Assembly (NCBI GenBank): GCA_964508495.1
Contig: CAZDUA010000004.1
Location: 290-64,289 of the forward strand
Length of the DNA stretch: 64,000 nucleotides
Source of the DNA: an uncultured Methanosarcinales archaeon
GTDB lineage: Archaea > Nanobdellota > Nanobdellia > Woesearchaeales > ARS49
Reading direction: 5' to 3'
The notes beneath the pieces are model-generated. The model was not told the DNA's origin. It worked only from the letters and a program-made list of their open reading frames with translations, and ran no database searches. Made by a program: the position numbers and the translations under genes. Shown one piece after another: positions 31,167 to 35,489 of this stretch. The stretch's first letter is position 1. The number at the start of each line of letters is the position of its first letter.

Positions 31167-31289
31167 TTTAGTTATTGGTAGAATGAAGTAATTCATCCCA
31201 CCCTAATACGCTCTCTTGAACTCGGGCGTTATTACACGAGGAAAGGGGGTTGTTTATAAAGGTTTCGTCAGAAGGTTTCGTCAGAGTTA

Positions 31290-31300
31290 GATTTATAAGG
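31290..31300 (+). promoter_or_regulatory. TATA-like box for tRNA-His
   Basis: gatttataagg lies about 28 nt upstream of the tRNA 5' end. Confidence 0.5.
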
Positions 31301-31323
31301 AATTACTATTGCCATAAACGTAT

Positions 31324-31395
31324 GGCGGCCGTGGTGTAATGGCAGCATAGGGGACTGTGACTCCTCTGACCCGAGTTCGATTCTCGGCGGTCGCC
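31324..31395 (+). tRNA. tRNA-His (GTG) with genome-encoded G-1
   Basis: G-1 plus GCGGCCG...CGGTCGC acceptor stem, anticodon arm GGGGA-CTGTGAC-TCCTC, T-arm CCGAGTTCGATTCTCGG, discriminator C. Confidence 0.9.
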
Positions 31396-31397
31396 CT

Positions 31398-31554
31398 CAA
31401 ACTTTCAGAAAGTTTGATCAAATTGCTTCTTGTTCTCATGCGAGAAGCATTTCATCACTGTTTGCTTTGCAAACAGGATTAAGACTCTTCTCTCATACTC
31501 ACAATGTCGCAAAAATCTCAATAAGACCGCAGAGTTCCGACAACCGCAGTTGGC
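31398..31554 (+). repeat. non-coding hairpin-rich element, copy A (3' of tRNA-His)
   Basis: A core of about 120 nt shared with 33894..34011. Flanked by gattctcggcggtcgccctca (31379-31399) and gatactcggcggtcgcactca (31555-31575). Confidence 0.8.
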
Positions 31555-31572
31555 GATACTCGGCGGTCGCAC

Positions 31573-32070
31573 TCAGCTTTTCTTTCTTAAATGAACAACC
31601 GCGCCAGGAAGAACATAACCAAGAACGTAAACAGCCCCAACAAGAATTGGATTATGAGGAGGAGTGGCGAGATTTAACAAAATAATCAACTTGTTGGAAA
31701 GAACTGCAAAAATACCGACATTAATCAAAGCAAGACAAGGAAGGAAAATGGACGCAATAATGTGCTGGTCCTTTTTCAACTTCTCAATACCATGCAAGAT
31801 GAAACTAAACACCCAGCCAAAACTCGCGCCGATAAAGAAAAGAGAGAAGTAAAGAGCGGCGCCTTTCAAAATGAGCAGGAAAGGAACAAGAACAACAGAG
31901 ACAATAAAATTTGCTACAATAGCAAGGAAAAGAAGAAGCCAATACAAAGTGCCATCAACAGTCTTAACCCAGCTCGACTTCCTTCTTTCAGCCTCTCCAA
32001 GAATCTTCTCAGTCTTAACAGCAAGTTCAGGAGTCCAATCTTTGTGCATATCTTTGTGCATGTGAGTCAT
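31573..32070 (-). CDS. integral membrane protein (165 aa, about 4 TM)
   Basis: Hydrophobic helices. Overlaps the stop of the MinD-like gene (ATGA), suggesting an operon. Confidence 0.5.
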   Translation of the reverse strand: MTHMHKDMHKDWTPELAVKTEKILGEAERRKSSWVKTVDGTLYWLLLFLAIVANFIVSVVLVPFLLILKGAALYFSLFFIGASFGWVFSFILHGIEKLKKDQHIIASIFLPCLALINVGIFAVLSNKLIILLNLATPPHNPILVGAVYVLGYVLPGAVVHLRKKS

Positions 32071-32795
32071 GGAACGATACCAAGCTTAGCCAAAAGAGAC
32101 ACGGCTCGAACAGGAGATTGATATTCCAAGTTCATAAGTTTTGCGGCAATCTGCTTCAAAGAAGTGCTGGCCTGCAGTTCAGGATGAAATTCAACAATAG
32201 AATAACCATGACGCAAAGCCTCCCTCATCAAAGGCTCAGCAGGAATAACGCCGAGCAACGGCTTATGAACGACCTGCATAATGTTGTCAGTAGATAAGTC
32301 AACACCATCATCATGCATGCGATTGATTATAATGCTATGAACATTGCACAACTTAGAAAGCTTCTGAACTTCCAAAACACTCGGAAAATCAGGCTGGGCG
32401 ACAAGGATAGTCTCACACTTAGTATCATACCATTTCACGTCAAGAGTAGGAACGTCAATGATAACTACATCCGCGAGCTTTTTCAGCTGAGGCAACAAAA
32501 TGGAAGGATGCGGAACGTCAACAAAGTTCAAACCGCTCAACAACAATTTAATTCCTGAAGGACGCTGATAAATTGCGTCCTTTAATGAACGAGCACCCAA
32601 CAAAACATCCTGAATGGTATGATTTGCTAAAGGCATGCCAACATGATGGCAAAGCTTAGGAGTCTTCAAATCACCATCAACAAGAAGAACATCAAAACCA
32701 AAATGGCGCAAGCAAAAAGCCAGATTTTTAGCTATCGTAGTCTTGCCCTGACCTGCATTTCCAGATATGAGAAAAACCTTATTCACTTGGTCCAT
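32067..32795 (-). CDS. MinD/ParA-family P-loop ATPase
   Basis: Deviant Walker A ISGNAGQGKTTIAKNLA and VLLVDGDLKTP. Confidence 0.8.
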   Translation of the reverse strand: MDQVNKVFLISGNAGQGKTTIAKNLAFCLRHFGFDVLLVDGDLKTPKLCHHVGMPLANHTIQDVLLGARSLKDAIYQRPSGIKLLLSGLNFVDVPHPSILLPQLKKLADVVIIDVPTLDVKWYDTKCETILVAQPDFPSVLEVQKLSKLCNVHSIIINRMHDDGVDLSTDNIMQVVHKPLLGVIPAEPLMREALRHGYSIVEFHPELQASTSLKQIAAKLMNLEYQSPVRAVSLLAKLGIVP

Positions 32796-33252
32796 GCATC
32801 ATCTTAGAAACGTAATTTAAAAATTCTTTGGTACGCTCAAAATAATCAGAAATAATGTCTATCGTAATTTCGATTTTTTCTCCTTCTAAATGAGCCGTCA
32901 TGGTAACATGGCGCCTGTATTCCTGCGTACGGTCAAACTTTGCCTTGTCAATCTTGCGAAGAACAAGATAAAAATCACAGAAATCGGTAATAAAACGGTC
33001 AGAAGAATAAAGTGTTGTAACCTGCTCGAACTTAACACGAGGCAACTCAGAACTCTCAGCAGCCCTATTCTGAGACTTTGCATAGTCCACCAGAGTATCC
33101 AGGCCAAAACCAATAGTGTTAATCAAACGCTCAATAATACTCTTAATAACGTCAACAGTACGAGTATACTTCAAACTAACCGCGATACTATGATCTGCCC
33201 GTTTCAATTCCTGAAAGGCCAGCTGTAATGATTCTTCCGGACTCATACACAC
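32779..33252 (-). CDS. hypothetical helical protein (157 aa)
   Basis: Intact ORF overlapping the MinD-like gene's start. No motif recognised. Confidence 0.45.
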   Translation of the reverse strand: MCMSPEESLQLAFQELKRADHSIAVSLKYTRTVDVIKSIIERLINTIGFGLDTLVDYAKSQNRAAESSELPRVKFEQVTTLYSSDRFITDFCDFYLVLRKIDKAKFDRTQEYRRHVTMTAHLEGEKIEITIDIISDYFERTKEFLNYVSKMMHGPSE

Positions 33253-33342
33253 TCCGAGAAAAATGCCTCAACCGATGTCTTCATACACTCACTACGCCAC
33301 TAGCGGCGCAATATACGAGAAAAGACGATGAAATATATAAAT

Positions 33343-33672
33343 TCACTGTAGATTAAGTATGGCCTGAGCCAAATCGCCCTTGGAAGCCTTAATGGCGGCC
33401 AAAGCGTCCTCTTTAGAAGCCTTAGTCTGGTCCATAACAGTCTGAATGTCCTCATCCTTAATATCAGGCTCAGAAGAACGAGCTTTTTCTATTGCAGCGC
33501 CCGTTATTTGCCAAGTTTCCTGGCCCATCATGTTCACCTTAGCAACCTGAGGGTTCTGGATAACGATATCCTTGTCAGAACAACGGATAATAACTTCATT
33601 AGCATCAACTTCCTGCTGTTGAATGCCCATACGCTGCATTGCCTTAGCCACATCACGAGGATTAAGCTTCAT
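33343..33672 (-). CDS. nac: nascent polypeptide-associated complex protein (NAC, with UBA)
   Basis: MKLNPRDVAKAMQRMGI...IQNPQVAKVNMMGQETWQI NAC domain plus a C-terminal UBA-like SKEDALAAIKASKGDLAQAIL. Confidence 0.85.
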   Translation of the reverse strand: MKLNPRDVAKAMQRMGIQQQEVDANEVIIRCSDKDIVIQNPQVAKVNMMGQETWQITGAAIEKARSSEPDIKDEDIQTVMDQTKASKEDALAAIKASKGDLAQAILNLQ

Positions 33673-33845
33673 GCCAGTCCTAGAAAGGAAGAACCCCAAA
33701 TGTGCAATGCTACAACAATAAGCATGATTACGACTGCAAAAGTGATTATATGACCTGGCTTGAACTCAATCTTACTATGATAGTCATCAAAATAAGTAGT
33801 AATACCCGCAGTACTCATCGGCATTCTCGTCTTGTCTTGCGCCAT
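33669..33845 (-). CDS. secG: Sec61-beta/SecG-type translocon subunit
   Basis: 58-aa protein: STAGITTYFDDY followed by a single C-terminal TM helix. The ORF-track N-terminal extension runs into repeat copy B. Confidence 0.65.
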   Translation of the reverse strand: MAQDKTRMPMSTAGITTYFDDYHSKIEFKPGHIITFAVVIMLIVVALHIWGSSFLGLA

Positions 33846-33893
33846 AGTGTTTGGTTTTTCGTTCTGATATAAAAATATAGTGGGGTTTGGCAC

Positions 33894-34032
33894 CAAACTT
33901 TCGGAAAGTTTGATCAAATCGCTCCTCGCTCGGGACTCGAGAAGCATTCTGATAAATCCCTAACGGGATGTTCAATACTCTTCTCTCGCCACTCACGATG
34001 TCGCGAAACCCGATTCTAGCTTTAAATATAAA
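33894..34032 (+). repeat. non-coding hairpin-rich element, copy B (3' of RNase P RNA)
   Basis: Shares its core with 31398..31520. Flanked by gtggggtttggcaccaa (33880-33896) and gcggggttgggcacgaa (34033-34049, the RNase P RNA 3' end). Confidence 0.8.
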
Positions 34033-34363
34033 GCGGGGTTGGGCACGAATAAGCTGCCTTTTGTACGCCTCCAACCAATGATAATCATCGGTGATGGTAT
34101 TACCCATCTGGACAGGCGAATTTGGGCATTCAACTAAGCGCACGTTCTGTGCTTGCACCGGCGAGGGCTATCCGTTTCATCCAATCGCGTAAGAACGTCC
34201 GCGCGTATGCCCGTGTCGCCACAGGAGTCACGCTTCCTCCTACTTACGCAAGGTCCGTTTCTGTGATGGAGCCAACCATTACTGATTCTCTTTGCAGAGT
34301 CGCCTTTTGATGGTGGGCAGACTTTCCTCAGCATTCGCCGAAGCCCAATACCTGCCCAACCCC
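34033..34363 (-). ncRNA. rnpB: RNase P RNA
   Basis: The minus strand begins GGGGUUGGGCAGG and ends CGUGCCCAACCCCGC (P1). It contains CR-I GCUGAGGAAAGUCUGCCC, GGAUGAAACGG, and the CR-IV/V-like ACAGAACGUGCGCUUAG. A TATA-like box lies upstream. Confidence 0.85.
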
Positions 34364-34394
34364 AATATAAACCTATATACTGCAGTATATAAAT

Positions 34395-35489
34395 TTATTG
34401 CTTTGAGAATACGAGTATAAACAGTTCTTCAGCGCCCTGCATTACTTTTCTTTCGCTTTCAACCTTGAATTTGAACTCTTCAGCTTTTTTCTTCAGAATG
34501 TCAACGCCGCGCTTCATGACAACACAGATTTTGCCGGACTTTTTCAAGATGAACTCTGCTTGATAGAAGACTTGATGATAAATTTTCTCAACAGTCGCAT
34601 CAGCAATACTCCTGCCTGGCTGGACAGGAAGAGTTATTATGCGGTCGAGAAAATTCTTGCCAAACTTGGCATCAAGCCATTTCATATCAGCCCTGCTGAA
34701 CTCAATAGATTTAACCACGCCAGCAATCTTGGCATTCTTTCTAGAAGCAGAAACGTGCTTGAAATTATCATCCATGGCAATAATGGTTCCTTTGAAATCA
34801 GTCTCTTCGTCTTTCAATTCATACTTGAAATCAGGAAGACGAGAAAAACCAAGCCTTTCCTTGCCAAACTTATGAGAAGAAGTATTCGTGGCAAACAAAG
34901 CAGCCTCTATTGGAATAATTCCATGACGACAGAACGGGTCAAGAAGAGACTGCTTAGTTTCATAACCAGAAATCGGCAACAAAGCAGCAGCAATATTACC
35001 CTTCAAAGCATCAGTGCCAAGAAAAATACGATAATCTCTACGGCCAAGATCAATACCAGAAAAGTCAACACCCAAATAACCATCATTACCGTCAATCAAA
35101 AGGAAGAAAATAGTCTGAGGGCTTTTACGCTCAATAGTTACTTTATATTTCTCAACAAGAGCACGATTAAGCACAAGCTCAACATCAAAAGAAGTGAAAT
35201 CGTGCTTGCCTGTCCTTTCACATACTAAGACGGCAGTTTTGTCGATAAATGGAAGGTCTTTCAAGATTTCAGGGCCTGGAGTTCCTGACAGTTTGAACGA
35301 AGACAAAAGAAGAATAACTTTAGAAAAAGTACGACCATGATAACACAAGTCAACCAAGTCCTGCTCAGACTTACAAGAAAAAAACACTTTGCCAGGAGAA
35401 ATTTTAATATTTGAAGCAGAAATTAATTTTTTGATTTCATCAGCACTAACGTCCTCTAAGCCGATATGCGTTAGAACAAGCCCGTTCAT
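34395..35489 (-). CDS. THUMP-domain class I RNA methyltransferase (Trm14/RlmL-like)
   Basis: [17 protein letters not shown] (SAM motif I region), IIAMDDN, and an N-terminal THUMP-like region. Confidence 0.6.

What the first reader, a model, noticed from the sequence alone, without database searches (positions are those of the whole stretch)
33880..34049. Second copy of the element after RNase P RNA, in opposite orientation relative to its host gene and again bracketed by a duplicated 3' end
Seen directly: the RNase P RNA (minus strand) ends in ...cgtgcccaaccccgc at 34033. Its last 17 nt, read on the plus strand as gcggggttgggcacgaa (34033-34049), recur imperfectly as gtggggtttggcaccaa (33880-33896; 14 of 17 identical in my ungapped eye alignment). 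Both copies of this duplication adjoin a TATA-like tatat tract. Between them lies an element of about 139 bp whose core matches copy A. The first 40 nt differ at 5 positions. Hairpin 2 is kept in both copies (8 bp in copy A including one G-U; 7 of 8 pairs in copy B), with one position changing t:g to c:g. Hairpin 3 is replaced by an unrelated hairpin, atccc-taac-gggat, at the same position. Both copies have the same plus-strand orientation, so the element is co-oriented with tRNA-His but anti-oriented with RNase P RNA. Inference: structure retained despite sequence change argues for a functional RNA/DNA structure rather than decay. Two different targets, each with its own duplication, argue for mobility.
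Basis: partly seen in the sequence, partly recalled or inferred. Interest (0 to 1): 0.72.

Follow-up and report, generated by a model that had tools for sequence, protein, structure and literature searches.

The report
Small hairpin mobile element, long duplications
The sequence after the RNase P RNA gene is a real copy of a ~130-base non-coding, hairpin-forming mobile element found in tiny DPANN archaea; it duplicates unusually long and variable stretches of its target, here the end of the RNase P gene plus the neighbouring promoter, and I found no description of it.

Summary
The 14/17 match is exact and extends to 22/27 (33870-33896 vs 34023-34049), beyond all 300 shuffles. Between the repeats lies a 129-nt element (33894-34022). 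Its first 26 nt match copy A (31398-31553) at 25 positions, while the rest is only 57% identical.

The same element occurs in 36 further distinct copies at many different sites in Woesearchaeota/Nanoarchaeota genomes and metagenomes. It is non-coding and matches no Rfam family. It folds into a 5' hairpin plus a long helix capped by a variable hairpin: 96.8% of pair cells are paired and 20 of 31 pairs show compensatory changes.

Eighteen copies carry direct duplications of the target that end exactly at the element's CAAAC start. These are 14 to about 118 bp long. Five more distant relatives have neither window copy. The closest relative lacks both, probably by loss with footprints.

I read it as a non-autonomous mobile element moved in trans by an unidentified enzyme. 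That enzyme would recognise the invariant 5' palindrome and insert at widely staggered breaks. A DNA-level mechanism is favoured; an RNA-templated one is not excluded. No transposase, reverse transcriptase or integrase was found nearby. One duplication boundary often sits 0-4 nt past a gene's stop codon, which is unexplained.

The parts
33870..33896 (.). Left copy of the target duplication of copy B. It holds the TATA tract that serves sec61-beta and a decayed copy of the last ~15 nt of RNase P RNA. Its last 3 nt overlap the element's CAA.
   Evidence: 22/27 identity to 34023-34049. Flank alignment score 14.5 against a shuffle maximum of 12.0. The RNase P-like 12 nt are absent from L051 and from all outgroups.
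33894..34022 (+). Copy B of the element (129 nt).
   Evidence: Covariance model R1 scores 105.5 bits, E about 1e-21. Aligned with copy A and 35 others.
33894..33919 (+). Near-invariant 5' end. It comprises the palindromic hairpin H1 (CAAACTTTC-N-GAAAGTTTG) and the linker ATCAAAT. It overlaps a second palindrome, TTTGATCAAA.
   Evidence: 25/26 identical between copies A and B, although the remainder is only 57% identical. The left duplication always ends here.
33920..34008 (+). Long interrupted helix P2 (33920-33945 pairs with 33977-34008), capped by the variable apical hairpin P3 (atccctaacgggat, 33956-33969).
   Evidence: Consensus structure and pair counts. Single-sequence folds have z about -3 as RNA and -2 as DNA.
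34009..34022 (+). 3' tail of copy B (cccgattctagctt). It matches the loosely conserved tail consensus ..CAGGTCTAGAA. In the family this end varies in length.
   Evidence: Tails listed for copies with clean duplications and the alignment.
34023..34049 (.). Right copy of the target duplication: a 12-nt trailer with a TATA-like tract plus the genuine last ~15 nt of RNase P RNA.
   Evidence: Outgroups show a single TATA tract directly after the RNase P 3' end.
34035..34365 (-). RNase P RNA gene, kept intact by the duplication.
   Evidence: Rfam RF00373, 126 bits, 34037-34361.
33669..33845 (-). sec61-beta gene. Its promoter tract lies in the left duplication copy.
   Evidence: ORF list. Pfam Sec61_beta on the identical protein in L051.
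31398..31553 (+). Copy A of the element, directly after tRNA-His. From about 31527 its long 'tail' is an older pseudo-copy of the tRNA-His T-arm interrupted by a 16-nt hairpin.
   Evidence: R1 scores 131.2 bits. The tail is homologous to L053 5283-5315.
31378..31406 (.). Left duplication copy of copy A: the tRNA-His 3' end plus tcaaactttc, overlapping the element's first 9 nt.
   Evidence: the repeat finder D5 gives 24/29 identity to 31554-31582. Flank score 17.0 against a shuffle maximum of 10.5.
31554..31582 (.). Right duplication copy of copy A, a decayed tRNA-His 3' end.
31325..31396 (+). tRNA-His gene, target of copy A.
   Evidence: ARAGORN and Rfam.

Best explanation
Copy B is a member of a family of ~120-160-bp non-coding, non-autonomous mobile elements of Woesearchaeota/Nanoarchaeota-type (DPANN) archaea.

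Shown:
- The element has a sequence-invariant palindromic 5' end (CAAACTTTCNGAAAGTTTGATCAAA).
- A long helix and an apical hairpin follow. Their pairing, not their sequence, is conserved.
- The 3' end is loosely defined.
- The element sits at many unrelated sites.
- It is flanked by a direct duplication of the target, 14 to about 118 bp long, that ends precisely at the 5' CAAAC.
- It is present or absent between related genomes.

At this site the element entered the last ~15 nt of the RNase P RNA gene. About 27 bp were duplicated: the RNase P 3' end plus the sec61-beta TATA tract. RNase P RNA therefore keeps its 3' end on one side, and sec61-beta keeps its promoter on the other.

Inferred:
- A trans-acting protein encoded elsewhere recognises the invariant 5' palindrome.
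- The element is inserted between two single-strand breaks made at a large and variable distance on opposite strands. Gap repair then creates the long duplication.
- Four observations make me favour a DNA-level, largely conservative (cut-and-paste-like) process, possibly using hairpins in single-stranded DNA. The pairing is almost purely Watson-Crick with no strand bias. Copy number is very low. Copies within one genome belong to different subfamilies even where duplications are perfect. The closest relative shows footprint-like losses.
- The precise 5' end, the ragged 3' end and junction microhomology suggest that joining or copying starts at the 5' hairpin end.
For: Family and spread:
- Exact 5'-motif scans found 11 places in species-representative genomes named Woesearchaeota or Nanoarchaeota, and 39 in metagenomes. 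This gives 36 distinct full copies.

Structure:
- Covariation is strong.
- G-U and A-C cells are both rare and balanced, 10 against 6 of 1140.
- The element is not coding, because the reading frame shifts between copies.
- Rfam has no match at E<=10.

Duplications:
- Eighteen copies have repeats ending within 0-3 nt of CAAAC, of 14-118 bp. Several are perfect: 44/44, 28/28 and 15/15.
- Fourteen exceed all 300 shuffles.
- Chance alignments in the other copies end 12-75 nt away from the element start.

Presence and absence:
- Outgroups L053, L055, L056, L057 and L059 have no R1 hit at either window site. Four of them show RNase P followed by a single TATA tract and sec61-beta; L053 carries an unrelated insert there.
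- L051 (about 94% identical) lacks both copies. It keeps CAAACTTTC at site A and a partial duplication at site B.
- L005 and L018 have insertions on opposite sides of one orthologous gene.

5' end constraint:
- Copies A and B match at 25/26 in the first 26 nt, against 57% elsewhere.

Junction microhomology:
- CAA is shared with the target in 4 of 18 copies, 1-2 nt in 3 others. Site A shares 9 nt.

Copy number:
- The 64-kb window has only 2 copies (filters off).
- Copies within one genome are divergent.

Literature:
- In 256 Nanobdellota proteomes the only transposase KO reported is the Y1 REP-associated type (10.64898/2026.05.13.725050).
Against: - No mobilising enzyme was identified. None appears among 60 window ORFs (Pfam). 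No gene recurs next to the element in 50 loci. Nothing turned up in viral contigs, phages or plasmids.
- No longer element shares the 5' end.
- There are no terminal inverted repeats.
- No known DNA transposase family that uses hairpins (IS200/IS605, RAYT) makes target duplications.
- One precise end, one ragged end, 3'-truncated pieces and long variable duplications are the classical signature of target-primed copying of an RNA.
- About half of the copies show no detectable duplication.
- Invariance of the 5' motif across the 36 database copies is partly forced by how they were found. Only the A-versus-B comparison and L028's degenerate second copy are unbiased.
- Whether L051 represents loss or the ancestral state is an inference from three or four outgroups.
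Confidence: 0.55

Rival explanations
1. SINE-like retroelement. An element RNA whose 3' end is the H1 hairpin (the minus-strand transcript) is copied by a reverse transcriptase encoded elsewhere. A nicked target strand serves as primer. Second-strand nicking at a variable distance gives the long duplications.
For: - The H1 end is precise, while the other end is ragged, truncated or extended.
- H1-retaining truncated pieces exist in L022, L024, L032, L036, L040 and L046.
- Microhomology occurs at the H1 junction, including 9 nt at site A.
- There are no terminal inverted repeats.
- Long variable duplications resemble those of target-primed reverse transcription.
- One duplication boundary often coincides with the 3' end of a gene or RNA.
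Against: - No reverse transcriptase was found in the window or near any copy.
- G-U pairs are under 1% of cells and no commoner than A-C, which is unusual for a selected RNA fold.
- Copy number is about 2 per genome and intragenomic copies belong to different subfamilies. Copy-and-paste from a resident master would instead give near-identical copies.
- The truncated pieces were found with an H1 pattern, so their bias toward H1 is an ascertainment effect. H1-less 3' fragments also exist (L035, L039).
- T-run avoidance on either strand is not significant.
Confidence: 0.2
2. Not a dedicated transposon. The element is an abundant small DNA or RNA that is repeatedly captured as templated 'filler' when breaks at fragile or targeted sites (tRNA or RNase P 3' ends, gene ends) are repaired by template switching. 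That repair also produces the tandem duplications.
For: - The same two sites in L053 carry unrelated short hairpin-rich inserts flanked by duplicated RNA-gene 3' ends.
- L023 has a 75-nt insert after tRNA-Pro that contains an inverted tRNA T-arm fragment.
- Microhomology is present at junctions.
- Duplication lengths vary widely.
Against: - The same 5' nucleotide is the junction in all 18 copies.
- The family is conserved, with an invariant 26-nt end and a selected fold, across many genomes.
- Whole units are inserted, not random segments.
- Two different subfamily members sit in tandem at one site in L028.
Confidence: 0.08
3. The element is a remnant or satellite of an integrative virus or plasmid. 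A site-specific integrase recombined an attP carrying a copy of the RNA-gene 3' end, and the flanking repeats are attL and attR.
For: - Repeats covering the 3' part of tRNA genes are typical of archaeal integrase att sites. Examples are L002 (44 bp, from the anticodon loop to the 3' end of tRNA-Cys), copy A, L023 and L035.
- The RNase P and tRNA-His 3' ends are reused as targets in L053.
Against: - Most targets are unrelated protein-gene ends or intergenic DNA, each with its own repeat of 14-118 bp. One attP cannot match them all.
- The element is a single folded unit whose 5' and 3' halves pair. It is not two arms left by an internal deletion.
- No integrase lies nearby.
- No viral or plasmid match was found.
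Confidence: 0.07
4. An immobile host small-RNA gene or regulatory structure. The flanking similarity would be chance or local tandem duplication.
For: - The fold is strongly conserved.
- Copies lie next to promoters and RNA genes.
- Three genomes carry a copy at the same place upstream of tRNA-Lys (L003, L020, L038).
Against: - The flank repeats are significant and position-locked.
- Insertion sites are unrelated to one another.
- Both window copies are absent from all six relatives examined.
- The three 'orthologous' tRNA-Lys copies belong to different subfamilies, which suggests repeated insertion.
- No Rfam family matches.
Confidence: 0.03

Closest known systems
IS1634 / IS1549 (IS1634 family, IS4-related DDE insertion sequences)
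   Same: They create long direct repeats of variable length on insertion, 8-514 bp depending on the copy. [quoted passage not shown]
   Different: Those are 1.5-2 kb autonomous bacterial elements with a DDE transposase and terminal inverted repeats. This element is about 130 bp, non-coding and archaeal, has no inverted termini, and no such transposase was found nearby.
MITEs (miniature inverted-repeat transposable elements)
   Same: Both are short, non-coding, structured and non-autonomous, sit between genes, and are flanked by target duplications.
   Different: MITEs have terminal inverted repeats matching a parent IS and a short duplication of fixed length. Here the two ends are unrelated (CAAACTTTC... 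versus ...GGTCTAGAA), one end is ragged, duplications span 14-118 bp, and no parent IS with the same end was found in 50 hits.
SINEs / non-LTR retroposons (target-primed reverse transcription)
   Same: Both have one precise and one variable end, truncated copies, junction microhomology, variable target duplications, and dependence on a trans-acting enzyme.
   Different: This element has no poly-A or simple-repeat tail. No reverse transcriptase was found. The fold shows no RNA-type wobble signature. Copy number is about 2 per genome. To my knowledge this class has not been described in archaea or bacteria.
REP/REPIN-RAYT and IS200/IS605-derived palindromic elements (Y1 HUH transposases)
   Same: Both are hairpin-forming elements whose structure is read at the DNA level and which are mobilised in trans by a single-copy enzyme. 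A Y1 REP-associated transposase is the only transposase KO reported in Nanobdellota proteomes.
   Different: Those elements insert without a target duplication, next to a fixed 4-5-nt target. Here there are long duplications and no conserved flanking motif.
Integrase att duplications at tRNA 3' ends (SSV/pNOB8-type archaeal integrative elements)
   Same: Both involve direct repeats covering the 3' part of a tRNA or RNA gene that keep the gene intact.
   Different: Here there are many unrelated targets including protein-gene ends, a 130-bp cargo-less unit, and no integrase.

Membership tests
MITE | Terminal inverted repeats at both ends | tested here: not met
   The 5' end CAAACTTTCNGAAAG and the 3' end ..CAGGTCTAGAA (or variable) are not reverse complements of each other. 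The inverted repeats are internal (H1, P2, P3).
MITE | Short target duplication of fixed length, characteristic of the parent IS | tested here: not met
   The lengths are 14, 15, 17, 19, 22, 25, 26, 27, 28, 36, 44, 48, 59, 61, 63, 74, 110 and about 118 bp.
MITE | A related autonomous IS sharing the ends | tested here: not met
   All 50 database hits to the 5' motif are short elements or fragments. The genome and metagenome scans were single exact-pattern scans, so a diverged parent could have been missed.
SINE-like retroposon | Reverse transcriptase partner in the same genome | not testable with these tools
   None was found in the 64-kb window or in 290 kb of flanks. Whole genomes could not be searched.
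SINE-like retroposon | Precise 3' end of the RNA, with variable or truncated 5' end and variable target duplication | tested here: inconclusive
   The pattern fits if the RNA is the minus strand. Truncated copies were ascertained through H1. The transcribed strand is unknown. The T-run test is not significant.
IS1634-family element | DDE transposase gene between inverted repeats | tested here: not met
   The element is 129-156 nt and non-coding.
IS1634-family element | Long, variable-length direct repeats on insertion | tested here: met
   compared with PMC2266710. This is a resemblance in outcome only.
IS200/IS605-derived or REP/RAYT element | Subterminal DNA hairpins recognised structurally | tested here: inconclusive
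   A hairpin lies at the extreme 5' end and the covariation is purely Watson-Crick. No enzyme has been identified.
IS200/IS605-derived or REP/RAYT element | Insertion without target duplication, 3' of a fixed short target motif | tested here: not met
   Long duplications are present, and no conserved tetranucleotide precedes CAAAC.
Integrase-borne integrative element (att repeats) | One specific target whose sequence is carried by the element, with an integrase gene in the element | tested here: not met
   At least 18 different targets were found and no integrase.
Casposon | Cas1 gene, terminal inverted repeats, 14-15-bp duplication | tested here: not met
   The element is non-coding, has no TIR, and its duplication length is variable.
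Any Rfam RNA family | Match to a curated covariance model | tested here: not met
   cmscan of 31250-34450 at E<=10 gave only RNase P, tRNA and chance-level hits elsewhere.

The most novel reading that the evidence does not exclude
The element would represent a transposition mode not described in prokaryotes. A cargo-less hairpin element is recognised only through a 26-nt palindromic end. Starting from that end, it is joined or copied into breaks 14 to more than 100 bp apart. One of the breaks is placed at the 3' boundary of a transcribed gene, 0-4 nt after the stop codon or at a tRNA or RNase P RNA 3' end. This would amount either to an archaeal SINE-like retroelement or to a single-stranded-DNA element that exploits the exposed strand at transcript ends.
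Probability: 0.3. Interest if true: 0.85.

Novelty: new variant of a known kind. Interest (0 to 1): 0.68.

Why it matters
DPANN archaea have tiny, streamlined genomes and are thought to carry very few transposable elements. A conserved, structured, cargo-less element that still moves in them points to an unrecognised mobilising enzyme.

The very long, variable duplications let the element land inside the ends of essential genes (RNase P RNA, tRNAs, ribosome-associated genes) without destroying them. Duplications of this kind have no accepted mechanism even for IS1634/IS1549. This family offers a small, sequence-defined substrate on which to work that mechanism out.

The invariant 26-nt palindrome is a ready-made bait for finding the protein.

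For annotation, these insertions create pseudo-3' ends of tRNA and RNase P genes. They also separate genes from neighbours whose promoters they duplicate.

Tried and rejected
- **Protein-coding reading.** The plus frame starting at CAA is open in 21 of 36 copies, but the frame shifts between copies, so the element is not coding.
- **Rfam at E<=10.** Nothing was found.
- **More copies in the window.** There are none (filters off).
- **Viral contigs (two patterns), phage and plasmid BLAST.** Nothing was found.
- **Partner enzyme.** Pfam on 60 window ORFs gave only housekeeping genes. All-against-all clustering of 438 ORFs from 50 loci found only orthologous neighbourhoods.
It is not supported by covariation.
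- **DGR-like adenine-specific mismatches between duplication copies.** The mismatches are not A-specific (by eye, output).
- **Strand assignment.** G-U against A-C counts and T-run avoidance are both inconclusive.
- **A roughly 15-bp periodicity in duplication lengths.** A hand count was not significant, so I dropped it.
- **Selection alone as the reason a duplication boundary sits at stop codons.** I rejected this on logic, because a longer duplication would be equally harmless. I did not simulate it.
- **L051 as a simple pre-insertion empty site.** I revised this after the outgroups showed a single TATA tract, so L051 looks like a loss with a footprint.
- **Literature searches.** I searched for archaeal SINE-like elements, DPANN MITEs and long variable duplications. 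Only IS1634/IS1549 turned up, and no description of this element.
Full report
**Setting.** The window comes from a DPANN archaeon. Its NAC protein is 60-82% identical to proteins that sources name Woesearchaeota or Nanoarchaeia. Rfam finds archaeal RNase P RNA at 34037-34361 (-), SRP RNA and four tRNAs. ARAGORN finds tRNA-His at 31325-31396 (+). sec61-beta (33669-33845, -) and NAC follow RNase P RNA on the minus strand.

**Checking the observation.**
- The two 17-mers match at 14/17, as stated. The repeat extends to 22/27 (33870-33896 against 34023-34049) and includes the TATA-like tracts.
- The local-alignment score of the flanks is 14.5, above all 300 shuffles (mean 7.5, maximum 12.0). Copy A scores 17.0 against a maximum of 10.5.
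- Between the repeats lies a 129-nt element (33894-34022).
- It aligns with copy A over about 120 nt. The first 26 nt differ at one loop base; the rest is only 57% identical.
- A filter-free covariance-model search finds no other copy in the window.

**A family.** One scan of species-representative genomes with the 5' motif found 11 places in six MAGs named Woesearchaeota or Nanoarchaeota; some carry an implausible Methanosarcinales label. One metagenome scan found 39 more. After removing identical copies, 36 full-length copies remain. Viral contigs, phage records and plasmids gave nothing.

**Structure.**
- RNAalifold and a model-based alignment of 37 copies give a 5' hairpin H1, then a long helix in two segments, then an apical hairpin.
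- 96.8% of pair cells are standard pairs, and 20 of 31 pairs show changes on both sides.
- Covariation is 0.408, against 0.135±0.009 in shuffles (0 of 500) and 0.06-0.10 when partners are slid.
- All eight apical-hairpin pairs and eight of nine basal-helix pairs covary.
- H1 never varies, but that was imposed by the search pattern. The unbiased evidence is the A/B comparison, plus one extra copy in L028 whose H1 has decayed.
- Wobble pairs are almost absent and balanced: 10 G-U against 6 A-C among 1140 cells. The constraint therefore looks symmetric between strands, or DNA-level.
- The element is not coding, because the frame shifts between copies. It matches no Rfam family.

**Target duplications.**
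- In 18 distinct copies the sequence just left of CAAAC recurs just right of the element. The left repeat ends 0-3 nt from the first C.
- The lengths are 14, 15, 17, 19, 22, 25, 26, 27, 28, 36, 44, 48, 59, 61, 63, 74, 110 and about 118 bp. Several repeats are perfect or nearly so: L002 44/44, L006 28/28, L023 15/15, L008 60/61.
- Fourteen exceed every shuffle. In copies without a repeat, the best chance alignments end 12-75 nt away.
- L026 is a tandem array of element plus a 118-nt repeat. L028 has two different subfamily members in tandem at one site.
- The 5' junction is always the same nucleotide. The 3' end lies 4-27 nt after GTCG, around a loose consensus ..CAGGTCTAGAA.
- Junction microhomology: 3 nt (CAA) in 4 of 18 copies, and 1-2 nt in 3 others including copy A.

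**Relatives of this genome.**
- The same gene order (gyrA, RlmL-like, RNase P RNA, sec61-beta, NAC..., tRNA-His, S13) occurs in six related contigs.
- None has an R1 hit at either site.
- In L055, L056, L057 and L059 the RNase P 3' end is followed by one TATA tract, and the sec61-beta ATG comes 35-41 nt later. tRNA-His is followed directly by the end of the neighbouring ORF.
- L051 is the closest relative, with 10-24% third-codon divergence. It also lacks both copies. At the RNase P site it has two TATA tracts over 56 nt. That is exactly the window sequence minus the element and the adjacent 12 nt of the left repeat. At the tRNA-His site it retains CAAACTTTC, the element's first nine bases, where the window's right repeat and the outgroups read differently.
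- I therefore read L051 as secondary loss with footprints, and the insertions as older than the window/L051 split. That fits the 17-18% decay of the window's repeats. This polarity is an inference.
- L005 and L018 carry copies on opposite sides of one orthologous small gene, each lacking the other's copy.

**Where it lands.**
- In seven copies the right repeat begins 0, 0, 0, 1, 1, 4 or 4 nt beyond the stop codon of a convergent ORF. That ORF continues through the repeat (L007, L009, L021, L010, L014, L006, L013).
- Two further copies are within 17 nt.
- In L002 (tRNA-Cys), copy A (tRNA-His) and L035 the left repeat ends 1-4 nt after a tRNA 3' end.
- L023 duplicates the tRNA-Pro 3' end. Copy B duplicates the RNase P end plus a 12-nt trailer.
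- L008 and L039 duplicate a promoter plus a gene's 5' part.
- So the duplication always restores a whole gene on one side. Selection explains that much.
- Selection does not explain why the boundary sits so close to the gene end. A longer duplication would do no harm. I leave this unexplained.
- Possibilities include a break made in the exposed non-template strand where transcription ends, or a cleavage preference for T(T/C)A combined with selection.

**Hot spots.**
- In L053 both of the same sites carry unrelated, hairpin-rich short inserts flanked by duplicated RNA-gene 3' ends.
- L023 has such an insert next to the element.
- From about 31527, copy A's long 'tail' is an older pseudo-tRNA-His T-arm interrupted by a 16-nt hairpin. 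It is homologous to part of L053.
- Three genomes carry different subfamilies at the same place upstream of tRNA-Lys.

**Search for a partner.**
- Pfam on 60 window ORFs finds only housekeeping proteins. They include DprA, Hef, HerA, topoisomerase VI, gyrase, PCNA and primase, with no transposase, reverse transcriptase or integrase.
- Clustering 438 ORFs from the 50 loci shows no gene recurring beside the element other than orthologous neighbours.
- A 2026 preprint reports that in 256 Nanobdellota proteomes the only transposase KO with strict hits is the Y1 REP-associated type. This is a lead, not a test.

**Mechanism.** It is shown that this is a mobile, non-coding, structured element with long variable target duplications, a precise and sequence-constrained 5' end and a ragged 3' end.

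I infer that a trans-acting protein recognises the 5' palindrome and that the element is inserted between widely staggered breaks. I favour a DNA-level, mostly conservative process for four reasons:
- the pairs are Watson-Crick only, with no strand bias;
- there are about two copies per genome;
- copies in one genome are as different as copies from different genomes, even though some duplications are perfect;
- the closest relative lost both copies, leaving footprints.

The main rival is target-primed copying of a minus-strand RNA. It explains the end asymmetry, the microhomology and the variable duplications better. It explains the wobble-free fold and the low copy number worse. Break repair with captured filler, integrase att remnants and an immobile RNA gene fit the data poorly; the reasons are given under each rival.

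**Comparison with known systems.** The outcome resembles IS1634/IS1549, whose direct repeats range from 8 to 514 bp with no proposed mechanism (PMC2266710). The anatomy resembles hairpin elements mobilised in trans (REPIN/RAYT, IS200/IS605 derivatives). The end asymmetry resembles SINEs. The element fails defining features of each of these, as listed in the membership table. I found no description of it in the searchable literature. That literature excludes most subscription journals.

**Limits.**
- The database copies were found with an exact 22-25-nt pattern, so diversity at the 5' end is unsampled.
- Only one genome scan and one metagenome scan were available.
- Whole genomes could not be searched for the enzyme.
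- Gene ends were called from ORFs, not from annotation.
- The stop-codon coincidence was not tested by simulation.

Noticed in passing
window 31527-31575; L053 5178-5315: Copy A's long tail is not element sequence. It is an older pseudo-copy of the tRNA-His T-arm and acceptor end, interrupted by a 16-nt hairpin (cgacaaccgcagttgg). It is homologous to a pseudo-tRNA-His piece in L053. There, two successive short inserts, each followed by a duplicated tRNA 3' end, sit after tRNA-His.
   Followed up: partly
L053 2672-2800: An unrelated insert of about 90 nt lies at the RNase P 3' end / sec61-beta promoter, the same site as copy B. It starts with its own 8-bp, 3-nt-loop hairpin (CTAGCCTTAAGAAGGCTAG). 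It is flanked by a ~23-bp duplication of the RNase P 3' end plus trailer. It may be a second element family with the same insertion style. The hairpin did not recur in the other loci held.
   Followed up: partly
L006, L007, L009, L010, L013, L014, L021: The target duplication begins 0-4 nt beyond the stop codon of a convergent gene in seven independent insertions. Selection for intact genes does not require such a tight boundary.
   Followed up: partly
L046 4260-4322; L024 428-463: 5' fragments of the element (H1 plus 15-45 nt) lie in frame inside UDP-GlcNAc 2-epimerase (wecB-like) genes. They sit at two different positions in two contigs and read QTL/FGKFDQ.... Further 5'-only pieces with a shared GCTGCGC continuation lie upstream of wecB in L022, L032, L036 and L046.
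   Followed up: partly
L046 900-3400: A run of toxin-antitoxin-like cassettes (nucleotidyltransferase/HEPN-like, HicB-like, PIN-like, identified from their translations) lies between a duplicated wecB 5' fragment fused to the HicB-like ORF and the intact wecB. It ends at an H1 fragment.
   Followed up: no
L028 2015-2317; L026 1-420: In L028 two different subfamily members sit in tandem at one site; the older one has a decayed H1. In L026 there is a tandem array of element plus a 118-nt target repeat.
   Followed up: partly
L051 1832-2509: The closest relative has an extra gene between the RlmL-like gene and RNase P RNA. It encodes a 225-aa Cys-rich protein with an N-terminal hydrophobic segment. 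In the window these two genes are only ~30 nt apart.
   Followed up: no
window 34068-34125: The RNase P RNA carries an insertion of about 53 nt relative to the Rfam archaeal model, just before the 3' strand of P1 (alignment).
   Followed up: no
window 33909-33918 and 31413-31422: The invariant 5' end contains a second perfect palindrome, TTTGATCAAA, centred on GATC. It overlaps the 3' arm of H1, so two mutually exclusive hairpins or a dimeric protein site are possible.
   Followed up: no
L003 2820-2880, L020, L038: Upstream of the tRNA-Lys-associated copies, the left flank holds two degenerate repeats (a)atgtc(a/g)tacttt(c) around a TATA box. They resemble the element's 3' AATGTCG and its ACTTTC, and may be remains of earlier insertions at this hot spot.
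   Followed up: no
L005 6352-6340 (minus strand): At the position where L018 and L001 carry a copy, the 'empty' site in L005 reads ttcaAGGTCTAttc. This resembles the element's 3' consensus CAGGTCTAGAA. It may be a footprint or chance.
   Followed up: no
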